Shown here piece after piece: positions 5,648 to 19,500 of a stretch of DNA of 64,000 bases; position 1 is the stretch's first letter, and each line of letters begins with the position of its first letter. The DNA is from Waterburya sp. GTDB lineage: Bacteria > Cyanobacteriota > Cyanobacteriia > Cyanobacteriales > Xenococcaceae. The notes below the pieces were generated by a model, which did not search any database, was not told where the DNA came from, and was given only the letters and a program-made list of their open reading frames with translations. The position numbers were made by a program, and so were the translations under genes. The stretch covers positions 1,984,001-2,048,000 of the forward strand of contig CBDCJV010000002.1 in assembly GCA_965217895.1 (NCBI GenBank). Direction: 5' to 3'.

Positions 5648-6380
5648 TGTAATATCATAATTATTATCGCCGTTAAGAGCAACAACTCAATAAAAGTTGC
5701 CTCTTGTATCAAATCTCATTCAACCCCAAATACAATTTTAATTCATGCCCAAAATGGTATTCCCTACTGTTGGTTTAATAGCGATAATTACCTCTCGATC
5801 CTTAACAAAAACCTGTTTGACAAATTAAGCTTCTATCGTTATTTAAATACTGTTGATAGTAATGGTGTTTTAGAGAAAAATTTGCGCGATCGCACTATAG
5901 TAGGATGTGTAGTTAAAGCTCCTTGTCAACAAACAAAAGAGGGAAAAATTCAAGTTAAAAAACCGCCTCGATTAATTTTGGGTTTGACCAAAAGCGATAG
6001 TCACAATTTAAAACAGCAGGCTGTAGTTCAACGCCTATGTGATTTATTTTCTCAACATGGTATAGCTGCTACCTACACTGATAAGATACGCGCTGCCGTG
6101 TGCGACAAGCTAGCCATTAATATAGCCACCAATGTTCTTTCAGCTTTGACTGGCAGAGTAATTGCCGATTTAACCGCAAACTACTATACCAACAGTCTAA
6201 TTAAAACTATTATTGCCGAGTTTAATCATGTTTTTTGCTGTTACGGCATCAAGCCAGAAGATTTGCCCACCGAACAAGCAATTTGTTCATATATCAAAGC
6301 CCCAAGCAGCCAAAGTCATCTACCTTCTCTCGCCCAAGATTTTTCTCAACACAAACCTGGAGAAATAAGTTCAATTACCG
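5648..6380 (+). pseudogene. panE: 2-dehydropantoate 2-reductase (PanE/ApbA family) fragment lacking both termini
   Basis: The open frame upstream of the called start reads IIIIAVKS...ILIHAQNGIP, then VGCVV, KLAINIATNVLSALTG, PSLAQD...GEI; no GxGxxG N-terminus. Confidence 0.75.
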
Positions 6381-6643
6381 CTGACGCTTGCTCCTTCTCT
6401 AAGAATTACACCACCACCCAAAAAACCAACTCCTGAAACTATTTGAGCAGGAATTCTCGTGGGGGTGGCATCTCCTGGAGTCATTATCGAAAGCATGACA
6501 AACATTGCTGATCCTAAAGTTACCAGCACATTTGTTTTTAAAATTGCTCTAGTTTTAAGCCATTGTCTTTCAATACCGATACCTACAGCTAGGAAAAATC
6601 CTACTAACAAACGAAGGGCAAAAGTCGTCCACGTAATGATCAT
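6371..6643 (-). pseudogene. mgtC: MgtC/SapB family protein, C-terminally truncated
   Basis: IGIERQW, LKTNVLVTLGSA, RIPAQIVSGVGFLGGGVILREG; stops before the TAAxxW motif. Confidence 0.8.
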
Positions 6644-11150: not shown

Positions 11151-11762
11151 GTGAAAAGATCGATCAAAGACAAGATTACAGCACTTGTTTTGGCTGGAGG
11201 CGAAAGTTCTCGTATGGGACAAGATAAAGCCTTGTTAGCCATTAAAAACAAAACTTTGCTGTCTCAAATTTGTTTAACTGCTAGTGAATGCGTTGCTCAA
11301 GTTTATGTAGTCACACCCTGGATTGAAAAATACCAGGAAATTTTACCTCCAGACTGTCAGCTAATTGAGGAAAAGCTAGTTTTAAATGCTAAATCCAACA
11401 CGCCTTTGATTGGCTTTGCACAAGGATTAAAGATAGTTAATACAAAATGGGTATTGTTATTAGCTTGTGACCTGCCTCAGTTGTCTTCGTCTCAAGTAAA
11501 ACAGTGGTCGCAAATTTTGGCAACAGTATTACCCACAGAAATTGCTTTGTTACCCCGTCATCCTAAAGGTTGGGAGCCTTTGTGTGGTTTTTATCGTTCT
11601 AGTTGCTTGTCGTTGTTAGAATCTTATCTATACGATGGTGGTCAATCTTTTCAAGACTGGCTTAATAAGTACCCTGTCAGAGAATTATCGACTAGCGATC
11701 GCGCTTGTTTATTTAACTGTAACACTCCTGATGACTGGAAATTGTTCCAAGAAAAGAAATAA
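11151..11762 (+). CDS. mobA: Molybdenum cofactor guanylyltransferase
   Basis: LAGGESSRMGQDKA, LACDLP, WEPLCGFY and FNCNTPDDW motifs. Confidence 0.93.
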   Translation: MKRSIKDKITALVLAGGESSRMGQDKALLAIKNKTLLSQICLTASECVAQVYVVTPWIEKYQEILPPDCQLIEEKLVLNAKSNTPLIGFAQGLKIVNTKWVLLLACDLPQLSSSQVKQWSQILATVLPTEIALLPRHPKGWEPLCGFYRSSCLSLLESYLYDGGQSFQDWLNKYPVRELSTSDRACLFNCNTPDDWKLFQEKK

Positions 11763-11824
11763 AAGCAAATTTTTTTTGACACAGATTACTATGGGTTTCT
11801 AACTAGATGTGGTTTAGTATCACT

Positions 11825-12138
11825 CTAAAGCTGAACAAAATTGGTACACTTTTTATTGCTTTGGAGTGGTTCAGCGCAGGCTCGAATTTCGATATCTTTA
11901 CCTGAAGCCATGTCTGCATAATGTCTTTGCTACTGATCTACAGGAACAACAGCCGTACCATATTTCTTTCCTTGGCATTCTTCAATATAGTGACTTGAAC
12001 CAGGAGGAGCTTCAGTTCTTGCCCAAGTAGCCTGACAAATTGGCGAGTAACGAATTTCTAATCTATAAGCTTTAAGTAGATCTGGCTTAAGCTGATAGTT
12101 GCCAGTATCTGAGGTGATAGTTTGAGAAATGCGATCGC
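11825..12138 (-). pseudogene. DUF2690-like protein fragment
   Basis: LEIRYSPICQATWAR motif; internal stop and terminal frameshift; the frame begins at HIP1 12131-12138. Confidence 0.65.
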
Positions 12139-12208
12139 CGATATTTTTCTTAACTGAAAGATGACCAAGGTAATCAAAGCTAGCAAGCAGACCAATTTAA
12201 AATCAATT

Positions 12209-12757
12209 TTAGTCGAATAATAAATACCAAGATTCTCTGGTAAGTTGCCACTCAATTTGATTCCAGCCGCGATCGCTCATCCAATCTGGACTAGGGCGTG
12301 TGCCAATTTTAATAAAACCATATCGCTTTGCCAAACGCGCAACCCGCAAATTTGCACTGACAGAAATACCTCTAATCTCTTTTAAACCCAGATCGTTAAA
12401 ACCAAACTCAATTAAAGCTTTGCCAACTTCAATTGCATAAGCGTAACGACTCCAAAACTGCGGTGCTAATTCAATTCCCATTTCCGCCTTATGCGAATCG
12501 TAATTCTCGCGACGTAGCCCACAACAACCGATTAAATTTAAGTTTCGGCGATCGATAATAGCAAGTTGATAATTGCAACGGGGACTTTCAGTTGCCCATT
12601 GAGTAAAAAGATTGAGTAATTCTCCTGTATGGCTAGGTGATACCTCTTCTGGCGCACAAAACTCAGCATATTTGGGATCGCCATGATAGGCAAAAAATGC
12701 TGATTCATCTTTTTGGATAAAGTCTCGTAGAAGAAATCTATTGGTAAAAATCTCCAT
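12209..12757 (-). CDS. GNAT family N-acetyltransferase (RimJ/RimL-like)
   Basis: TNRFLLRDF, LIGCCGL, AEMGIEL, FGFNDLGL..I motifs. Confidence 0.85.
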   Translation of the reverse strand: MEIFTNRFLLRDFIQKDESAFFAYHGDPKYAEFCAPEEVSPSHTGELLNLFTQWATESPRCNYQLAIIDRRNLNLIGCCGLRRENYDSHKAEMGIELAPQFWSRYAYAIEVGKALIEFGFNDLGLKEIRGISVSANLRVARLAKRYGFIKIGTRPSPDWMSDRGWNQIEWQLTRESWYLLFD

Positions 12758-12776
12758 ATCATTTTCAAGTAAAAAC

Positions 12777-13268
12777 TTAAGCTAAACGGAAAGCGATCGC
12801 AAATGCTGTTGTTGCTCCAAATGCTGCTATTGTGCGAACATGATTCCAAAGTGTCCAGTTCGTTAGGTATTTAGCCCATAAACTTGCGCCTTCAGCACTA
12901 CTCGGATCGACTTTTGCTAAAGCATCGTTTAACGGTACATTAAAGGCGATCGTTACTCCAACAGTACCAACGATATAAAGTAAGCTGCCAACGAGTAAGT
13001 AGATTGAATTTGGTTGATGAAACTTTAACAGAGAAAAAACAGCTAGAAAAAGGCAAACTACAGCCGTACCAAACAATGCGGTCATAAACAAGGGATTAAT
13101 TACAGTAATGTTAATAGACTGCATGGCAACAATACCCTCTGAAGGTTTTAGTCGAGCAAGAGCTTTCATCACAAAAGACGAGAAAGCAAAAAAAACTCCA
13201 GCCACTAGTCCAGTTCCCAGTATGGCAAAAAGCTGTAATAACAAAAATGATTTATTATTTATCAGCAT
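12777..13268 (-). CDS. DUF1772 / anthrone oxygenase family membrane protein
   Basis: GLVAGVFFAFS..VM.AL, AMQSIN, NVPLN..L and WNHVRT motifs; start placed at ATG 13268. Confidence 0.85.
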   Translation of the reverse strand: MLINNKSFLLLQLFAILGTGLVAGVFFAFSSFVMKALARLKPSEGIVAMQSINITVINPLFMTALFGTAVVCLFLAVFSLLKFHQPNSIYLLVGSLLYIVGTVGVTIAFNVPLNDALAKVDPSSAEGASLWAKYLTNWTLWNHVRTIAAFGATTAFAIAFRLA

Positions 13269-13344
13269 ATAAATCTCCGATGATTGTGCTAATTCATTTT
13301 TAGATAATTTAGCAGTGAGAAAGGCAATCGGGTAAATTAAGAAA

Positions 13345-13857
13345 TTAGAGGTTATTGGGTTGTTGCCTCGGATTCCATATAAATAATTTCCCAAATATGA
13401 CCATCTAAGTCTTGAAAACCATGAGCATACATAAAACTGTGGTCTTGCGGTTCATTGTAAGTTTTCATCTACTGACCGTATTAAAGCCGTAGGAGATTGA
13501 TGCTTTTACTGCTTGGGTTGCAATTCCTCTTCCCCAATATGCTTTTGCTAAACTGTAAAGAACTTCAACTTCATCTAACTTATTTAAATAACGCAGACCA
13601 CAATAGCCAATCATTTGAAGTAAATCATCTTTTGTAATAGCCCAAATTCCATATTCTCGCTGTTGCCAATGCTCAACAAAAGATTGAAGCGATTTTTCGA
13701 CATTTTCTCTAGAAATTGGGACTCCTCAACTTGGAAGAAAACGAGTTACTTCAGGATTGCCCCAAATTGCTGTCAGAGCATCCAAATCTAATAGCTGAAT
13801 TGGTCGCATTATAAAACCGTCAATCTGCAAAACTGTTGGCTCGGCAAGATTTGTCAT
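13345..13857 (-). pseudogene. GNAT (RimJ/RimL) acetyltransferase pseudogene
   Basis: Manual translation MTNLAEP...NPEVTRFLPS*...HWQQREYGIWAI...IGYCGL...EVEVLY...YWGRGIAT with frameshifts and stops; 3' boundary approximate. Confidence 0.75.
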
Positions 13858-13964
13858 TACAATATTTTCAACTACTCTATTGTTTGTTTATAGGGCAAAT
13901 TAAACCAACATTATCGATTATTTTTCTGCATTTCTTAAGTACTTGTGGCAAAAAACCAGATTCT

Positions 13965-15347
13965 CTATTTAATTAATAAGGTAAACCAAAAAGTTGTTCC
14001 CGAACCTGGATTACTAATTACGCCGATTTCTCCACCATGAGCGTTAATAATTTGACGACAAAGATATAATCCCAATCCTAAATTTACATTACATCGCTTA
14101 CCGTATCCTTGAAAGTACCGTTTAAATAGCTGTTGGCATTGTTGGAAACTCATACCAACGCCGTCATCTTGAATTTGGCAACGGATGAATTTTTGCTCAC
14201 CTTTATTCTCGATCGCTTCAGCACTAATAGTTAAATTGACTCCTGGAGGATTATGATTTAAAGCATTAGCAATCAAGTTTTGTAAGACTCGCCATAGCTG
14301 ATGTGGATCGCCTTGAATTAGGGGTAGCTCGTCGCTAATATAGTTAGTAATCGCAGCTCGATTTTTGCTAATTAATGGTTCTAATTCGGTAATAAGATCG
14401 GCGACTAAATAACTTAGTTGCAGTGACTCAAGCTTGATCGCAAATCCCTGTACTTTATTTCCATAAATTTCTAGAAGAGAATCGATTAAGTTTAATTGGC
14501 GATCGCTTCCTTGAATCATTCTTTCAATCACACGGCGCGGTACGGGTACTAGATCGGATTCTGGTTGAGCATGGCGATGATTTTCCAATAAACTATTCAG
14601 CGTTAACACCATTCCCGTAACTGGATTGCGTAGATCGTGGGAAACGGCGTGTAAAAAAAGCTGAATTTCACGACGAGATTCTAATTCAGCAGATTTGAGA
14701 CGTTCGTATAAATATACTCCCAGATTACAAATCAGACAAATCCAAGCAATATAAATAGGAACTGTGGGTAAATAAGATAAGGTTCTGGCTTCAACCAAGC
14801 CCATTCCTATGTTAACTACAAAAAAGTAAATTAATACTCCTAATTGAGAGAGTAAATGTAGTCGCCAGCGCACGGGAATAAAAATTGCCTGAGTTAAAAA
14901 TACTAAAGTCCAAAACCAAACTTGTTCGTTAGCTGCGCCTACTAAAGTAAGTAAAATTTGGTCAACCAAAGTAATCGACCAAGAAGTGCCGATAAAAACT
15001 ACTCCTGGATGATTTTTGCCGAATTTACTGCGATGCAAAGCCAAACACCCGATTAAGCAAATGGCGATCGCAGCTTCGATAACTAAATTGTAGCTTTCGC
15101 AAAGTTCCGAACCATTAGTACATTCGCGAATACTTAAACTCAAAAGCGCGAAACTTGCCACACAAAACAAAGCAATCCCAATGACTAAGGGCAATCTTTG
15201 ATATAGAAAATAGTTACGCCAGGTTTGCTCGTCTAAACTAAGATCGTTTTCTATAATTAAATCAGACGAAAAAATCGTTGTATTCAAAAGAATCTGAATT
15301 TTTTTGGCAAACCTTTTTTTGGCTCTTAGTAAACTGACTATAGGCAT
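13965..15347 (-). CDS. Membrane-bound sensor histidine kinase
   Basis: 5-6 TM helices; H-box VSHDLRNP, N-box NLIANA, DDGVG and GLGLYLC. Confidence 0.92.
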   Translation of the reverse strand: MPIVSLLRAKKRFAKKIQILLNTTIFSSDLIIENDLSLDEQTWRNYFLYQRLPLVIGIALFCVASFALLSLSIRECTNGSELCESYNLVIEAAIAICLIGCLALHRSKFGKNHPGVVFIGTSWSITLVDQILLTLVGAANEQVWFWTLVFLTQAIFIPVRWRLHLLSQLGVLIYFFVVNIGMGLVEARTLSYLPTVPIYIAWICLICNLGVYLYERLKSAELESRREIQLFLHAVSHDLRNPVTGMVLTLNSLLENHRHAQPESDLVPVPRRVIERMIQGSDRQLNLIDSLLEIYGNKVQGFAIKLESLQLSYLVADLITELEPLISKNRAAITNYISDELPLIQGDPHQLWRVLQNLIANALNHNPPGVNLTISAEAIENKGEQKFIRCQIQDDGVGMSFQQCQQLFKRYFQGYGKRCNVNLGLGLYLCRQIINAHGGEIGVISNPGSGTTFWFTLLIK

Positions 15348-15386
15348 AAAAAAGTTTTAATTCACATTGTTATGAGCGATCGCTTA

Positions 15387-15635
15387 TCACGCTACCATCA
15401 TGCCATTTTTCCAAAGCTCATACTCACTCAGATCGATATCTTCATTCCACACAATCCCGTAGCCCCCTTGCTCAACCTTAAAGTTTTTGAAAAATGCAGG
15501 TTGACGAAGTGGAGCAAATATGGGATTTTCTAAAAGATGGAAAATATCACATTTCTTGACTTCTTGATTGGTAAATTTAATCACTAAGGTGCGATCGTTA
15601 ATTGCTTCTGCCTTGCAAATTCGAGGGCATTTCAT
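15387..15635 (-). CDS. DUF2442 domain protein (orphan)
   Basis: L.IKFTN.E.K..D, F.PL....FF...V..GGYGIVW...DL pattern. Confidence 0.8.
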   Translation of the reverse strand: MKCPRICKAEAINDRTLVIKFTNQEVKKCDIFHLLENPIFAPLRQPAFFKNFKVEQGGYGIVWNEDIDLSEYELWKNGMMVA

Positions 15636-15682
15636 ACTATTTTTAGTCTACTTTTCTGCATTGTAGTAAGAGATAGGGTTTG

Positions 15683-16168
15683 TCAAGTGCGATCGCCATT
15701 TTCAGGTATTTCAACTAAGACAGAAAGCACCAGCGCAGCCAACCCCATAATCTTAATAATGGCATTTGTGGCATGGGTATATTCCCATTGGTTACGATAT
15801 TTCATCCAATCCACTGGAAATGATGTTGGTGTCCATTTAGCTAGTTCGGCATTGACAGGTGCGATAAACGCGAACCAAAGCATGAGTGCCAGTACCACAC
15901 AAATTGCTCCTACTAAAGTCCAATAGAAAGTTACACCACGTCTAAATAAAAGTAAAACCAAAACAATCGCCGTGAGTACCGAGCCAACTTCAATAACTGC
16001 ACCAACAGTACCAAAAAGATAATATAAACCTTTAGTAGTTATTGTTATCCAAAGTTGCGCGTCAAAATAAAAAACTCTGGGTGGTAGCTCTAATAAATGG
16101 CAAAAAGACAATCCCGTACTGAGAGCAGTCAGCATAATAGAGACAAAACGCCATGCTTTTATCGGCAT
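15683..16168 (-). CDS. DUF1772-like membrane protein
   Basis: HLLELP, PVNAEL..W and W..YRNQWEYTH motifs; start placed at ATG 16168. Confidence 0.75.
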   Translation of the reverse strand: MPIKAWRFVSIMLTALSTGLSFCHLLELPPRVFYFDAQLWITITTKGLYYLFGTVGAVIEVGSVLTAIVLVLLLFRRGVTFYWTLVGAICVVLALMLWFAFIAPVNAELAKWTPTSFPVDWMKYRNQWEYTHATNAIIKIMGLAALVLSVLVEIPENGDRT

Positions 16169-16245
16169 ATTTACGCTCTTTTCTTTAAGATACATTTGAT
16201 TTCTCTCCAGCCGTCGAACTTTTAAAAAGCTTGACACAAATCAAA

Positions 16246-16923
16246 TTATGGCTTAAATCCCCAACAGGCATAGCTAGTTGCCCTAGCTAATCCAAGCGGA
16301 AATTGCTGAAAGCGAATATCTTTTAAACCAGCATCAGTCATTATTTCAGCTAAATCTTTTTGAGTAAGACAATTATTGCCCCAGTGTAATTGGACACAGG
16401 AGCTTAATAACCCCCAACGGCTGACTGACAAAATTAGTGGAGCTTGAGGTTTAAGTATTCTGACCATTTCCTTTAGTCCGACTATTGGTTCTGGTAAATG
16501 CTCCAAAACATGAGCAGCAATGACAAGATCGAAGCTGTTATCTGCAACAGGAATTGCTATTAAATTAGCGCGAGTTATTCGAGCCTTGATTCGAGCCTGT
16601 TGCAGATTTTGTTGTGCCGTTAGCAGCATTTGCGGAGAAATATCGACCCCAGTAACATTTAACCGACTCTGAATTTGTGCTAAAGCCAAGCTAAAAGCTG
16701 CTGTGCCAATACCACAATCGCAGACAGTTGAATTTCCTCCCAGCTTTATTACGCCCGATGCTTGAAGCGACTCAAACAAGCTAAGATAAGCACGAAAATA
16801 TCCCAATCGTAGAATTTGATGATGCCAGTTGCGAGCAGCGTCATCGTACATAGATTTTATCTGGTCGTAAGTCGGATAAACTCGCTGAACCGAAATTTGC
16901 CACCAGCCAACTGTGAGTTTCAT
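16246..16923 (-). CDS. Class I SAM-dependent methyltransferase
   Basis: DCGIGTA, GVDISPQML, FDLV...HVLEH and RILKP motifs. Confidence 0.88.
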   Translation of the reverse strand: MKLTVGWWQISVQRVYPTYDQIKSMYDDAARNWHHQILRLGYFRAYLSLFESLQASGVIKLGGNSTVCDCGIGTAAFSLALAQIQSRLNVTGVDISPQMLLTAQQNLQQARIKARITRANLIAIPVADNSFDLVIAAHVLEHLPEPIVGLKEMVRILKPQAPLILSVSRWGLLSSCVQLHWGNNCLTQKDLAEIMTDAGLKDIRFQQFPLGLARATSYACWGFKP

Positions 16924-16998
16924 AAAATTAATCTGATGTAACCTCGAACTGTCTTAAAATTACACCAAGCAGCAAAGAGCGCACTTCCTGCGACTGGC

Positions 16999-17014
16999 TC
17001 ACTCGATTGGGTGA
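16999..17014. promoter_or_regulatory. Candidate NarL/LuxR-type response regulator operator
   Basis: Imperfect palindrome TCACTC-N4-GGGTGA about 76 bp upstream of the methyltransferase start. Confidence 0.4.
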
Positions 17015-17046
17015 TATTAATTAAATTGAGCTAGATGGAATAATAA

Positions 17047-17703
17047 CTATAGCAGCCCCGACCTCAGAGCGATTACAGCAGCTTGAACGCGATCGCTCAC
17101 AGCTAGTTTATTCATTACTCCCTTAACGTGAGTTTTCACGGTGTTAGTACTTAAATAAAGTTGAGCAGCAATTTCAGGGTTGCTACAGCCTTCGACAATC
17201 AGTTTTAATACTTCTAGTTCTCGCGAAGATAAGTTAGCACTGCTCGATGTCTGCGGTGATGGCGATTTAAGATTACCCATTACTTGTTGGGCAATTTGCG
17301 GATCGAGATAAACCCCTCCATCTTGGGCAATGGCGATCGCTGTTAATAATCGCTCTACTTTGACTCCTTTGATACAGTAAGCATCTGCACCACTAGCAAG
17401 AGCAGCGATTACTTCGGTTTTATTGGTATGAGAAGTTAGTATTACTACCCGAACCTTAGGCAAAGCTTTTTTAATCTCTTGGGTAACGGCTATGCCATCG
17501 AGGCGAGGTAAGCCAATATCGACGATCGCTAAATCGGGCTGAAACTTAATTGCATCTTCTACAGCTAAATAGCCGTCATCACTAAATCCTACTATCTCCC
17601 ACTCGGATTTTTTTGCTAGAATTTGTTCCAATCCCATTTGCATCATCGGATCGTCTTCAACAATTAAGACCCTTAGTTTGGAAGAATTAGATTGAAGATT
17701 CAT
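17047..17703 (-). CDS. NarL/LuxR family DNA-binding response regulator
   Basis: REC domain (VEDD, VDIGLP, YCIK) plus LSSRELEVL...IAAQLYLSTNTVKTHV HTH. Confidence 0.93.
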   Translation of the reverse strand: MNLQSNSSKLRVLIVEDDPMMQMGLEQILAKKSEWEIVGFSDDGYLAVEDAIKFQPDLAIVDIGLPRLDGIAVTQEIKKALPKVRVVILTSHTNKTEVIAALASGADAYCIKGVKVERLLTAIAIAQDGGVYLDPQIAQQVMGNLKSPSPQTSSSANLSSRELEVLKLIVEGCSNPEIAAQLYLSTNTVKTHVKGVMNKLAVSDRVQAAVIALRSGLL

Positions 17704-17723
17704 CTTAATTTTGCCTCACCTAC

Positions 17724-17949
17724 CTACCGAGTTTGAAAGATATTCTTTCTGTATCATTGGCTTGTCTATTCGGGCTGCTGCACGATCTAATTCTGCTACT
17801 TCTCTTGCGTCTAGTTGCCAGTCTTTAGCAGCAATATTTTCTTGCGTTTGTTGAATATTCTTTGCTCCAGGAATGAGAATTGCACCTTTAGCGATGCACC
17901 AGTTGATAGCTACTTAAGACATAGTTTTCTGGCGGTATAAAGCGATCGC
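17724..17949 (-). pseudogene. Aldo/keto reductase C-terminal fragment
   Basis: AIA..RQKTMS*VAINWCIAKGAILIPGAKNIQQ..EN...DWQL; begins at or next to HIP1 17942-17949. Confidence 0.75.
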
Positions 17950-18021
17950 CTGTATTCTCAAACTAGAGTAATGCGTAGCGTTGCCATGTCTTAAGTTTAT
18001 CGCTTTTTGCTGAGATGTAGC

Positions 18022-18089
18022 GCGATCGCGCTTGTTTATTTAACTGCAATACTCCTGATGACTGGCAAATGTTTAGACAAAAGGATTGA
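18022..18089 (+). pseudogene. Displaced second copy of the mobA 3' end
   Basis: Translates DRACLFNCNTPDDWQMFRQKD*, versus DRACLFNCNTPDDWKLFQEKK* at the end of mobA. Confidence 0.85.
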
Positions 18090-18195: not shown

Positions 18196-19500
18196 GTGAT
18201 TAAATCTCGCTCCCAACCCAGAACAACTAATTCCCCTAAATTTAAGCTCAAATATTTGGGACGGCAAATATTAGATTCGCTTTATTCTTGGCGACGGCTA
18301 GACTGGTTTTTACTTGTATCAGTAGTTGGTCTAACTATCTTTGGTGGTTTTACTATTTACAGTACAGAATCCTCTTCAACTCATAGCTATAGCTATCAAC
18401 ATTGGACAATTAGCCTCTTAGGTTTAGGATTAGTTTTGTTTTTGTCCCGTTGGCGTTATCAGTCTCTATTGCGCTGGCATTGGCTGATTTATGTTCTGAC
18501 TAATCTTTCTTTGATTGCGGTGATGATTACTGGGGTAACTGCAAAAGGAGCGCAGCGTTGGATTACGGTGGCGGGATTTAATGTTCAGCCCTCAGAGTTC
18601 GCCAAAATTGGCATGGTAATTACTCTTGCTGCCCTGTTACACAATCAAGATGGAGCAAATTTAAAAACGGTTTTACGCACTCTGGCAATTACAGCAATTC
18701 CCTGGGGACTAGTGTTTTTACAGCCCGATTTGGGTACTTCTTTAGTGTTTGGCGTAATTGTATTGACCATGCTGTACTGGGCTAACGTTAATACGGGTTG
18801 GTTAATTTTAATGACTTCTCCCTTAGTTTCAGCTATTCTTTATCACCTTTATCTGCCTGGATGGTTGATTTGGGTTCTAGCTGTAGGAGGAGTTGCCTGG
18901 CTGACTTTACCTGCAAAAATTGTTTCTACCCTCAGTGCGATCGCTATAAATTTGGGCGCGGTAGAATTGGGCAATGTTTTCTGGGGACTGCTTAAGGATT
19001 ATCAACAAGCTAGACTTACTATGTTTCTCGATCCCGAACAAGATCCTTTAGGTAACGGCTATCATTTGATTCAGTCTCGAATTGCGATCGGCGCAGGTAA
19101 ACTTTGGGGACAGGGATGGCATCAAGGAACACAAACAAACCTTAATTTTATTCCCGAACAGCACACTGATTTTATTTTTTCGGCTGTAGGAGAACAGTTT
19201 GGTTTTATTGGTAGTATTCTCTTGCTAGCAGTGTTTTGGTTTATTTGTATGCGTCTAATGTGGATTGCTTCTACCGCTAAAGATAATTTTGGCTCTTTGT
19301 TAGCCATAGGTATTCTCAGTATTATTGCTTTTCAAGCCGTAATTAATATTAGTATGACTATCGGACTTGCACCCATTACAGGAATTCCTCTACCCTGGAT
19401 GAGCTATGGACGATCCTCCTTGTTATCTAGTTTTATTAGTATTGGCTTGGCAGAGTCAGTAGCTAATCATCGAGAAAGCAAAACTAGAAAATCTTACTAA
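18196..19500 (+). CDS. rodA: Rod shape-determining SEDS protein RodA
   Basis: GAQRWI, QPSEFAK, LQPDLGT, PEQHTDFIF and TGIPLPWMSYGRSS motifs. Confidence 0.93.
   Translation: MIKSRSQPRTTNSPKFKLKYLGRQILDSLYSWRRLDWFLLVSVVGLTIFGGFTIYSTESSSTHSYSYQHWTISLLGLGLVLFLSRWRYQSLLRWHWLIYVLTNLSLIAVMITGVTAKGAQRWITVAGFNVQPSEFAKIGMVITLAALLHNQDGANLKTVLRTLAITAIPWGLVFLQPDLGTSLVFGVIVLTMLYWANVNTGWLILMTSPLVSAILYHLYLPGWLIWVLAVGGVAWLTLPAKIVSTLSAIAINLGAVELGNVFWGLLKDYQQARLTMFLDPEQDPLGNGYHLIQSRIAIGAGKLWGQGWHQGTQTNLNFIPEQHTDFIFSAVGEQFGFIGSILLLAVFWFICMRLMWIASTAKDNFGSLLAIGILSIIAFQAVINISMTIGLAPITGIPLPWMSYGRSSLLSSFISIGLAESVANHRESKTRKSY

What the first reader, a model, noticed from the sequence alone, without database searches (positions are those of the whole stretch)
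11695..18089. Integrase-free 6.3-kb island inserted at a HIP1 site in mobA, with a replacement 3' end
Seen: the last 68 bp of mobA (11695-11762) recur 6327 bp downstream (18022-18089). Similarity starts exactly at GCGATCGC, is 42/44 over the first part and 57/68 overall, and both copies keep the frame and a stop codon at the same position. No integrase or transposase lies between them. Known: integrative elements that target coding genes restore the 3' end, and HIP1 has been proposed as a recombination core but its function is unresolved. Inference: foreign DNA carrying its own diverged mobA tail recombined at the HIP1 palindrome and displaced the resident tail.
Basis: partly seen in the sequence, partly recalled or inferred. 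Interest (0 to 1): 0.85.

Follow-up and report, generated by a model that had tools for sequence, protein, structure and literature searches.

The report
HIP1-joined insertion duplicating a gene end
A 6.3-kb block of accessory genes, with no integrase, was inserted near the end of the mobA gene of a cyanobacterium at the abundant 8-base palindrome HIP1, leaving the gene's tail on both sides; five more insertions in the same genome have this scar, a natural hint that HIP1 serves as a joint when new DNA comes in.

Summary
The repeat is real (57/68; next best match in the genome 38/68). The insertion is real: the four closest relatives and two metagenome contigs have an empty mobA-rodA site. No integrase or transposase was found. 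The cargo is not exotic: most of it sits in the same order at another locus of a close relative (85-95% identity), with host-like GC. It meets the criteria of 'insertion with long target duplication' (ILTD), except that it carries no restriction-modification genes. New is the junction: 13 of 112 ends of two-copy local repeats lie at HIP1 (0.9 expected). Six such loci (mobA included) have empty sites in relatives, and each copies the stretch from an intragenic HIP1 to the gene end. Against a dedicated HIP1 system: 0 of 27 simple indels and only 12 of 962 alignment breakpoints lie at HIP1, and HIP1 pairs already make up 20-40% of strong microhomologies here. Best reading: host recombination joined congeneric DNA at HIP1 and crossed over in the shared mobA tail. 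The predicted empty-site tail WQMFRQKD* was not found, and the crossover point is unresolved. The scan noted one similar HIP1 case in another genome.

The parts
11151..11762 (+). mobA (MobA-like NTP transferase), intact, ends ...WKLFQEKK*
   Evidence: Pfam PF12804; 88-91% aa to the four closest relatives
11631..11694 (+). Tract just upstream of HIP1 where the genome differs from all four relatives at 10 of 64 bases (14 of 480 in the rest of mobA)
   Evidence: marks a donor or older mosaic patch, origin unresolved
11695..11762 (+). Left copy of the repeat: HIP1 (11695-11702) to the mobA stop; the working gene end
11930..12196 (-). Small ORF, weak DUF2690 match; nearest homologues only 68-80% identical, elsewhere in 8 genomes of the genus
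12209..12757 (-). GNAT acetyltransferase; a second copy (92%, with part of the next gene) lies at G000 C2:795190-796229
12777..13394 (-). Anthrone oxygenase family membrane protein
   Evidence: Pfam PF08592; 89% to G017:C37
13465..13887 (-). Second GNAT gene broken by an in-frame stop at 13726-13728
13965..15347 (-). Membrane histidine kinase
   Evidence: Pfam HisKA + HATPase_c; 85% to G017:C37
15376..15696 (-). HIP1-to-HIP1 cassette with a DUF2442 gene (15387-15635); G017 has one HIP1 in its place
   Evidence: (run X1 skips it)
15683..16237 (-). 184-aa membrane protein, weak anthrone-oxygenase-like match
16246..16923 (-). SAM-dependent methyltransferase (Methyltransf_11 type, not a DNA methylase match)
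17047..17703 (-). LuxR-type response regulator
   Evidence: 89% block with G017:C37
17716..17949 (-). Dead 3' fragment of an aldo-keto reductase that begins at HIP1 17942 and has an early stop; the intact gene lies at G000 C2:1808085 (92%)
17950..18021 (.). 72-base spacer between two HIP1 sites; no clear source found
   Evidence: only weak 36-46 bp hits in 39 genomes
18022..18089 (+). Right copy of the repeat: HIP1 (18022-18029) plus orphan mobA tail ...WQMFRQKD*, running on into the normal mobA-rodA spacer
18196..19500 (+). rodA, the ancestral downstream neighbour of mobA
   Evidence: Pfam PF01098; adjacent to mobA in 9 of 20 genus loci

Best explanation
This is an insertion with long target duplication made by host recombination, with HIP1 as the non-homologous joint. 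Inferred steps: (1) a related strain had the mobA end next to this accessory-gene block; (2) a piece of its DNA entered the cell, probably by natural transformation; (3) a HIP1 at the far end of the block was joined to the HIP1 inside mobA, either by closing a circle or directly on the chromosome; (4) a homologous crossover in or just before the shared mobA tail fixed it. The outcome is shown: mobA keeps a working end, the stretch from HIP1 to the stop is duplicated, and rodA is spared. Selection would keep only joints that restore the gene, which explains why the scars run from an intragenic HIP1 to the nearest gene end. HIP1 is most likely used because it is the commonest strong microhomology. 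I slightly favour the circle route with a crossover in the perfect stretch at repeat positions 30-44, which makes WQMFRQKD the old resident end.
For: Empty sites. No mobility gene. Cargo in the same order at another locus of G017 at 85-95%, and GC equal to the genome. HIP1 at 13 of 112 repeat ends, against 0.87 expected and 4 of 1498 in simulated random junctions. Of 16 gene-end duplications, 6 have exact HIP1 at the intragenic end and 0 at the other end (mobA added by hand). All 6 have a clean empty site in at least one of four relatives. In two cases the two copies match different alleles seen in relatives, which points to two lineages. HIP1 pairs are 20% of exact matches of at least 10 kcal/mol and 40% of those of at least 11. 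comEC is intact. Precedent: trimmed, re-circularised DNA integrating by a single crossover gave 109-950 bp partial duplications in E. coli (PMC3240628).
Against: No donor with mobA followed by the cargo was found in 38 other genomes of the genus. Both copies share bases absent from the relatives compared in 4 of 6 loci (10 sites), which fits copying of resident DNA or gene conversion better than a simple two-allele swap. HIP1 is not a general breakpoint: 0 of 27 simple indels and 12 of 962 block ends. dprA reads frameshifted in this assembly, so competence today is uncertain. Six of the 12 HIP1-ended repeats showed no clean empty site.
Confidence: 0.6

Rival explanations
1. A HIP1-specific activity (nicking, methylation-guided processing or a recombinase acting in trans) makes the joint, so HIP1 is a true recombination core and not just a microhomology.
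For: Exact or decayed HIP1 lies at 6-8 of 16 junction ends, well above HIP1's 5-7% share of all matches of 8 bases or more. A HIP1-to-HIP1 cassette lies inside the island, and G035 has a HIP1-to-HIP1 deletion-type join. Methylated or homologous HIP1 raises transformation in PCC 7002 (10.1101/2024.09.10.611283). Site-specific recombination at HIP1 is cited in PMC4390886 (the primary paper is not held).
Against: An energy-weighted microhomology null gives 20-60% without any enzyme. 0 of 27 simple indels use HIP1. No HIP1-binding complex was found and HIP1 excision was similar in E. coli (Robinson 1997, seen only as title and as summarised in PMC13756078). HIP1 did not help editing in Nostoc (10.64898/2026.07.31.742098).
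Confidence: 0.17
2. The tail was copied from the resident gene during break repair or a crossover between chromosome copies, and the two copies then drifted apart; no donor tail was involved.
For: Shared derived base at position 9 and shared derived bases in 4 of 6 loci. The left copy's private changes at positions 26 and 29 are silent; the right copy's changes are mostly amino-acid changing. Compare merodiploid formation between chromatids (PMC3784515, abstract).
Against: The right copy differs from the left at 6 of 18 bases at positions 45-62 but at only 2 of 44 before, and it keeps its frame, which random drift does not predict. In other loci the copies match distinct alleles of relatives.
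Confidence: 0.15
3. Remnant of a classical integrative element whose integrase was lost or acted in trans, with the mobA 3' end as its attachment site.
For: Restoring the 3' end of the target gene is typical of such elements (own knowledge).
Against: No integrase fragment. Cargo is ordinary chromosomal DNA of the genus. No second occupied mobA site with a duplicated tail was seen in the 102 other mobA loci held. The scar recurs in unrelated genes with different lengths, at 5' as well as 3' ends.
Confidence: 0.06
4. Chance similarity or assembly artefact.
For: None found.
Against: 57/68 against 38/68 for the next best match. Contigs of run X12 cover the left junction and most of the island with no differences (probably the source sample, so not independent). 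The copies differ at 11 sites, so this is not a collapsed or doubled read.
Confidence: 0.01

Closest known systems
Insertion with long target duplication (ILTD; Nobusato et al. 2000, seen only as a reference; Furuta, Abe and Kobayashi 2010, PMC2853133, passages and one supplementary file searched)
   Same: Insert under 20 kb, duplication over 30 bp, unique repeat, empty site in relatives, no mobility genes, repeat spans a start or stop codon so the target gene survives; reported mostly from naturally competent species and once from Microcystis.
   Different: No restriction-modification genes in the cargo. One repeat end is fixed at HIP1; HIP1 is not mentioned in that paper's text or in the searchable supplements (one supplement could not be searched). 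The copies are 87% alike over 62 bases.
Homology-facilitated illegitimate recombination, and circle plus single crossover (PMC3240628, passages and discussion read)
   Same: One homologous end and one short-microhomology joint (3-10 bp); the circle route gave partial gene duplications of 109-950 bp with no integrase.
   Different: The linear route normally deletes recipient DNA, whereas here 62 bases are duplicated; the microhomology here is a recurring genome-wide motif.
HIP1-bounded deletion in smtB of Synechococcus PCC 6301 and HIP1 plasmid recombination in PCC 7002 (seen only as summarised in PMC13756078, PMC4390886 and PMC5861425)
   Same: Recombination between non-allelic HIP1 sites.
   Different: Those are laboratory deletions or plasmid events; here are natural gains of DNA with rescue of the gene end, counted across a genome.
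Displacement of gene ends in T6SS and Rhs loci (PMC5361080, passages)
   Same: Incoming DNA displaces the old 3' part, which stays downstream as an orphan; the same one-sided mechanism is proposed.
   Different: Here the targets are housekeeping genes and the cargo is unrelated to the target; there is no toxin-immunity array.

Membership tests
ILTD (Furuta 2010 criteria) | Target duplication longer than 30 bp, unique in the genome | tested here: met
   62-68 bp; next best match 38/68
ILTD (Furuta 2010 criteria) | Empty site with one copy in a related genome | tested here: met
   4 of 4 closest genomes; left/target 55-58 of 62, right/target 52-56 of 62
ILTD (Furuta 2010 criteria) | Insert under 20 kb, no integrase, transposase or phage gene | tested here: met
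   6327 bp; Pfam scans
ILTD (Furuta 2010 criteria) | Carries restriction-modification genes (the screen's entry rule, not part of the scar) | tested here: not met
   Only a Methyltransf_11-type small-molecule methyltransferase
Integrative element with an attachment site in a coding gene | Integrase at one end | tested here: not met
Integrative element with an attachment site in a coding gene | Excised circle or empty site in the carrier population | tested here: inconclusive
   No skipping joint in contigs of run X12; contigs drop rare forms
Integrative element with an attachment site in a coding gene | Same site used by other elements | tested here: not met
   No duplicated mobA tail in 102 other loci held (4, 98); many are short contigs of distant relatives
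Homology-facilitated illegitimate recombination product | Donor homologous at one end, microhomology at the other | tested here: inconclusive
   HIP1 joint seen; donor arrangement not found
Homology-facilitated illegitimate recombination product | Deletion of recipient DNA beside the joint | tested here: not met
   Duplication, with no loss on either flank
Homology-facilitated illegitimate recombination product | RecA dependence, uptake by competence | not testable with these tools
   comEC intact, dprA frameshifted in the assembly
HIP1 site-specific recombination | HIP1 used more than equally stable microhomologies | tested here: inconclusive
   6-8 of 16 observed; null 5-7% by length, 20-60% by energy

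The most novel reading that the evidence does not exclude
Cyanobacteria have a HIP1-guided gene-capture route: incoming DNA is processed or paired at (methylated) HIP1 sites, so HIP1-bounded pieces from relatives are spliced into HIP1 sites inside genes, and those that bring the missing gene end survive. HIP1 would then be a genome-wide docking grid for horizontal transfer without integrases, and these scars its natural record.
Probability: 0.2. Interest if true: 0.85.

Novelty: new variant of a known kind. Interest (0 to 1): 0.55.

Why it matters
The function of HIP1 has been open for three decades. Evidence for recombination at HIP1 rests on a few laboratory events, and the four HIP1 papers whose passages I read give no genome-scale count of natural junctions. 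This locus and five like it give a countable natural scar (HIP1 to gene end duplicated, empty site in relatives) that can be scored in any complete cyanobacterial genome and rebuilt in a transformable strain. Even if HIP1 acts only as the commonest strong microhomology, it would explain part of the unexplained ILTD class in this phylum and show a way to gain several kilobases without an integrase. The locus itself, with ordinary cargo, is unremarkable.

Tried and rejected
Search for a donor with mobA joined to the cargo: none in 38 other genomes of the genus. The metagenome scan returned only distant mobA, 50-74% aa (80 of 347 hits kept). Source of the 72-base spacer: not found. Excision: no joint in contigs of the likely source run; uninformative because only contigs were available. 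HIP1 as a general rearrangement hot spot: rejected, 0 of 27 simple indels and 12 of 962 block ends over 1.6 Mb of G023 and G020. Island as compositionally foreign or HIP1-rich: rejected, GC 39.0% as in the genome and 11 HIP1 sites against a mean of 7.1 per 6.3 kb. A gradient of copy divergence away from HIP1 (34/335 against 52/338, P=0.049) is not used, because relatives show the same trend. Three gene-end duplications without exact HIP1 showed no clean empty site; too few to interpret. One further HIP1-ended repeat outside the filtered set stayed unresolved. Promoter and terminator scans gave nothing usable. Runs with a small word share are not used as habitat evidence. Literature searches for HIP1 with microhomology, with long target duplication, with breakpoints or islands, 'flanked by HIP1' and with duplication or junction found no report of this scar; the library lacks most subscription papers. 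A test of the pattern on long stretches from other families was not done.
Full report
Observation. The last 68 bases of mobA (11695-11762) recur at 18022-18089, with 57/68 identity overall and 42/44 at the start. Identity begins exactly at GCGATCGC: 6 of 30 bases match outside and 28 of 30 inside. The next best match on the chromosome is 38/68. The host chromosome has 5824 HIP1 sites, 1.12 per kb; I infer a cyanobacterium from this and from gene content. Pfam finds a GNAT, an anthrone oxygenase, a histidine kinase, DUF2442, a methyltransferase and a LuxR regulator between the copies, plus broken GNAT and aldo-keto reductase pieces, and no mobility gene.

Empty sites. The four closest genomes (G017, G019, G020, G023; mobA 88-91% aa) have mobA directly before rodA with one copy of the tail. 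Of 20 genus loci fetched, 9 show this adjacency and none holds the cargo there. Contigs of runs X1 and X2 skip exactly 6327 bases; X12 (probably the source sample) and X7 show no such joint (contigs only). The relatives' tail is WELF(Q/K)E..., with no stop at the codon where both copies stop. It matches the right copy at positions 26, 29 and from 63 on, and the left copy at 45-62. Both copies share a G at position 9 that none of 29 other genus loci has. HIP1 lies at the same codons in 23 of 30 genus loci, so it predates the insertion.

Cargo. G017 contig C37 carries the regulator-methyltransferase-membrane protein block (89%), the kinase (85%), the anthrone oxygenase (89%) and the GNAT (95%) in the same order at a different, variable locus. 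G000 has its own second copies of the GNAT region and of the reductase at 92%, about the distance between these genomes (90-91%), which suggests import from a sister lineage. Several internal borders fall on HIP1. The DUF2442 cassette (15376-15696) is replaced by a single HIP1 in G017 and skipped in X1. The reductase fragment starts at HIP1 17942. In G035 the regulator and kinase are joined between the HIP1 sites at 17333 and 14499.

Genome-wide test. Self-comparison of chromosome C2 gave 696 direct-repeat pairs within 60 kb. Filters on length, identity and distance left 233; two-copy repeats were 67, and 56 remained after removing collinear paralogues. Thirteen of their 112 ends lie at HIP1 in both copies, against 0.87 expected from density; internal HIP1 sites are near expectation (13 against 8.65). 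Simulated random junctions end at HIP1 in 4 of 1498 cases. In 1.6 Mb of G023 and G020 the count is 3 of 30 ends (0.23 expected; one is the same locus as in G000), and in 98 other loci 1 of 8. I searched all 11 other HIP1-ended loci in the four relatives: 5 have a clean empty site in at least one genome and 6 do not. The 5, with mobA, are exactly those where the repeat runs from an intragenic HIP1 to the nearest gene end: four 3' ends and two 5' ends. By recollection of their sequences, two targets look like comM and uppP; no call tested these names. Of 16 gene-end duplications (15 called by the script, plus mobA, which missed the cut-off by one base), 6 have exact HIP1 at the intragenic end, 2 more look like decayed HIP1 by eye, and none has it at the outer end.

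Results against a special HIP1 role. Only 12 of 962 alignment-block ends between G000 and the two relatives lie at HIP1, and 0 of 27 simple indels do. Because HIP1 is so common and GC-rich, HIP1-HIP1 pairs are 5-7% of all exact matches of 8 bases or more, 20% of those of at least 10 kcal/mol and 40% of those of at least 11. The observed share is therefore compatible with plain microhomology-driven joining.

Mechanism. Shown: insertion, duplication from HIP1 to the stop, congeneric cargo, recurrence. Inferred: a donor with mobA next to the cargo (not found), uptake, a HIP1-HIP1 joint, and a homologous crossover. Two routes give the same product. One is linear, anchored upstream in mobA. The other is a circle closed at HIP1 that integrates by one crossover, as seen in E. 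coli, where such events gave 109-950 bp duplications and were ten times more frequent than the linear route (PMC3240628). Private changes cluster in 11631-11694 (10 of 64, against 14 of 480 in the rest of the gene) and in right-copy positions 45-66. One diverged resident allele cut by a crossover at positions 30-44 would explain both clusters, which slightly favours the circle. The shared position-9 base then needs gene conversion, so the point stays open. comEC is intact; dprA is split by a frameshift in this assembly.

Comparison with what is known. The scar meets the published criteria for insertion with long target duplication, apart from the restriction-modification cargo (PMC2853133, passages). 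That paper's text and the two supplementary files that could be searched do not mention HIP1; a third file could not be searched. I reached this class through earlier scan notes and then read the paper. HIP1 recombination is known from the smtB deletion and plasmid work, which I saw only as summarised in PMC4390886, PMC5861425 and PMC13756078 (passages). HIP1 raises transformation in PCC 7002 (10.1101/2024.09.10.611283; abstract, introduction and passages) but did not help editing in Nostoc (10.64898/2026.07.31.742098, passages). Five searches found no report linking HIP1 to such duplications.

Verdict. A real insertion and a new variant of a known kind. The island is ordinary. The recurring HIP1-to-gene-end scar is the part worth following, because it makes the role of HIP1 in gene gain countable and testable. 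Interest 0.55.

Noticed in passing
G000:C2:2232661-2233885 (L175): A 1.1-kb insertion at a HIP1 about 27 bases into a gene that looks like comM (name recalled); the upstream region and first codons are duplicated so the gene stays whole; empty in all four relatives.
   Followed up: yes
G000:C2:127980-128775 (L171) and G019 (L194): The filled allele is shared with G019, while its usual sister G020 is empty, which suggests filled sites spread by ordinary homologous recombination; the right HIP1 has decayed in G019.
   Followed up: partly
window 15376-15696; L154: The DUF2442 gene sits alone between two HIP1 sites; run X7 has 289 more bases here and G062 has a partner ORF (DUF4160-like, recalled) between HIP1 sites, so the partner was probably lost in this genome.
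   Followed up: partly
L153:1377-2281 (G035): Response regulator and histidine kinase joined at one HIP1, out of frame: a natural HIP1-to-HIP1 deletion-type junction.
   Followed up: partly
G000:C2:1742166-1742796: dprA is split by a one-base frameshift at a short A run; real or assembly error not determined.
   Followed up: partly
window 18019-18032: The right HIP1 lies in a perfect 14-base palindrome; the 12-base form occurs only 14 times on the chromosome.
   Followed up: no
window 17942-18029; G000:C2 near 1451367; L196, L197: Short HIP1-to-HIP1 spacers (about 23-72 bases) sit just outside the junction in several of these insertions.
   Followed up: no
G000:C2:2377000-2384300: A cluster of HIP1-rich 30-150 base repeats, many with two HIP1 sites a few bases apart; nature unknown.
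   Followed up: no
G000:C2:4485556-4487770 and 4864945-4865212: A long array of about 72-base units (CRISPR-like spacing) and a short-period tandem array seen in the self-comparison.
   Followed up: no
G000:C2 near 1234720 and 3625452: Small ORFs that look like antitoxins (recalled: Phd/YefM-like and AbrB-like) lie right beside HIP1 junctions.
   Followed up: no
L238:9070-11660 (G023): The same scar in a relative: 106 bases from HIP1 exactly to a stop codon, duplicated around 2.5 kb; G000 has one copy.
   Followed up: partly
window 6371-6643: A 90-aa ORF that looks like a truncated MgtC/SapB gene (recalled) just downstream of a recJ-like gene.
   Followed up: no
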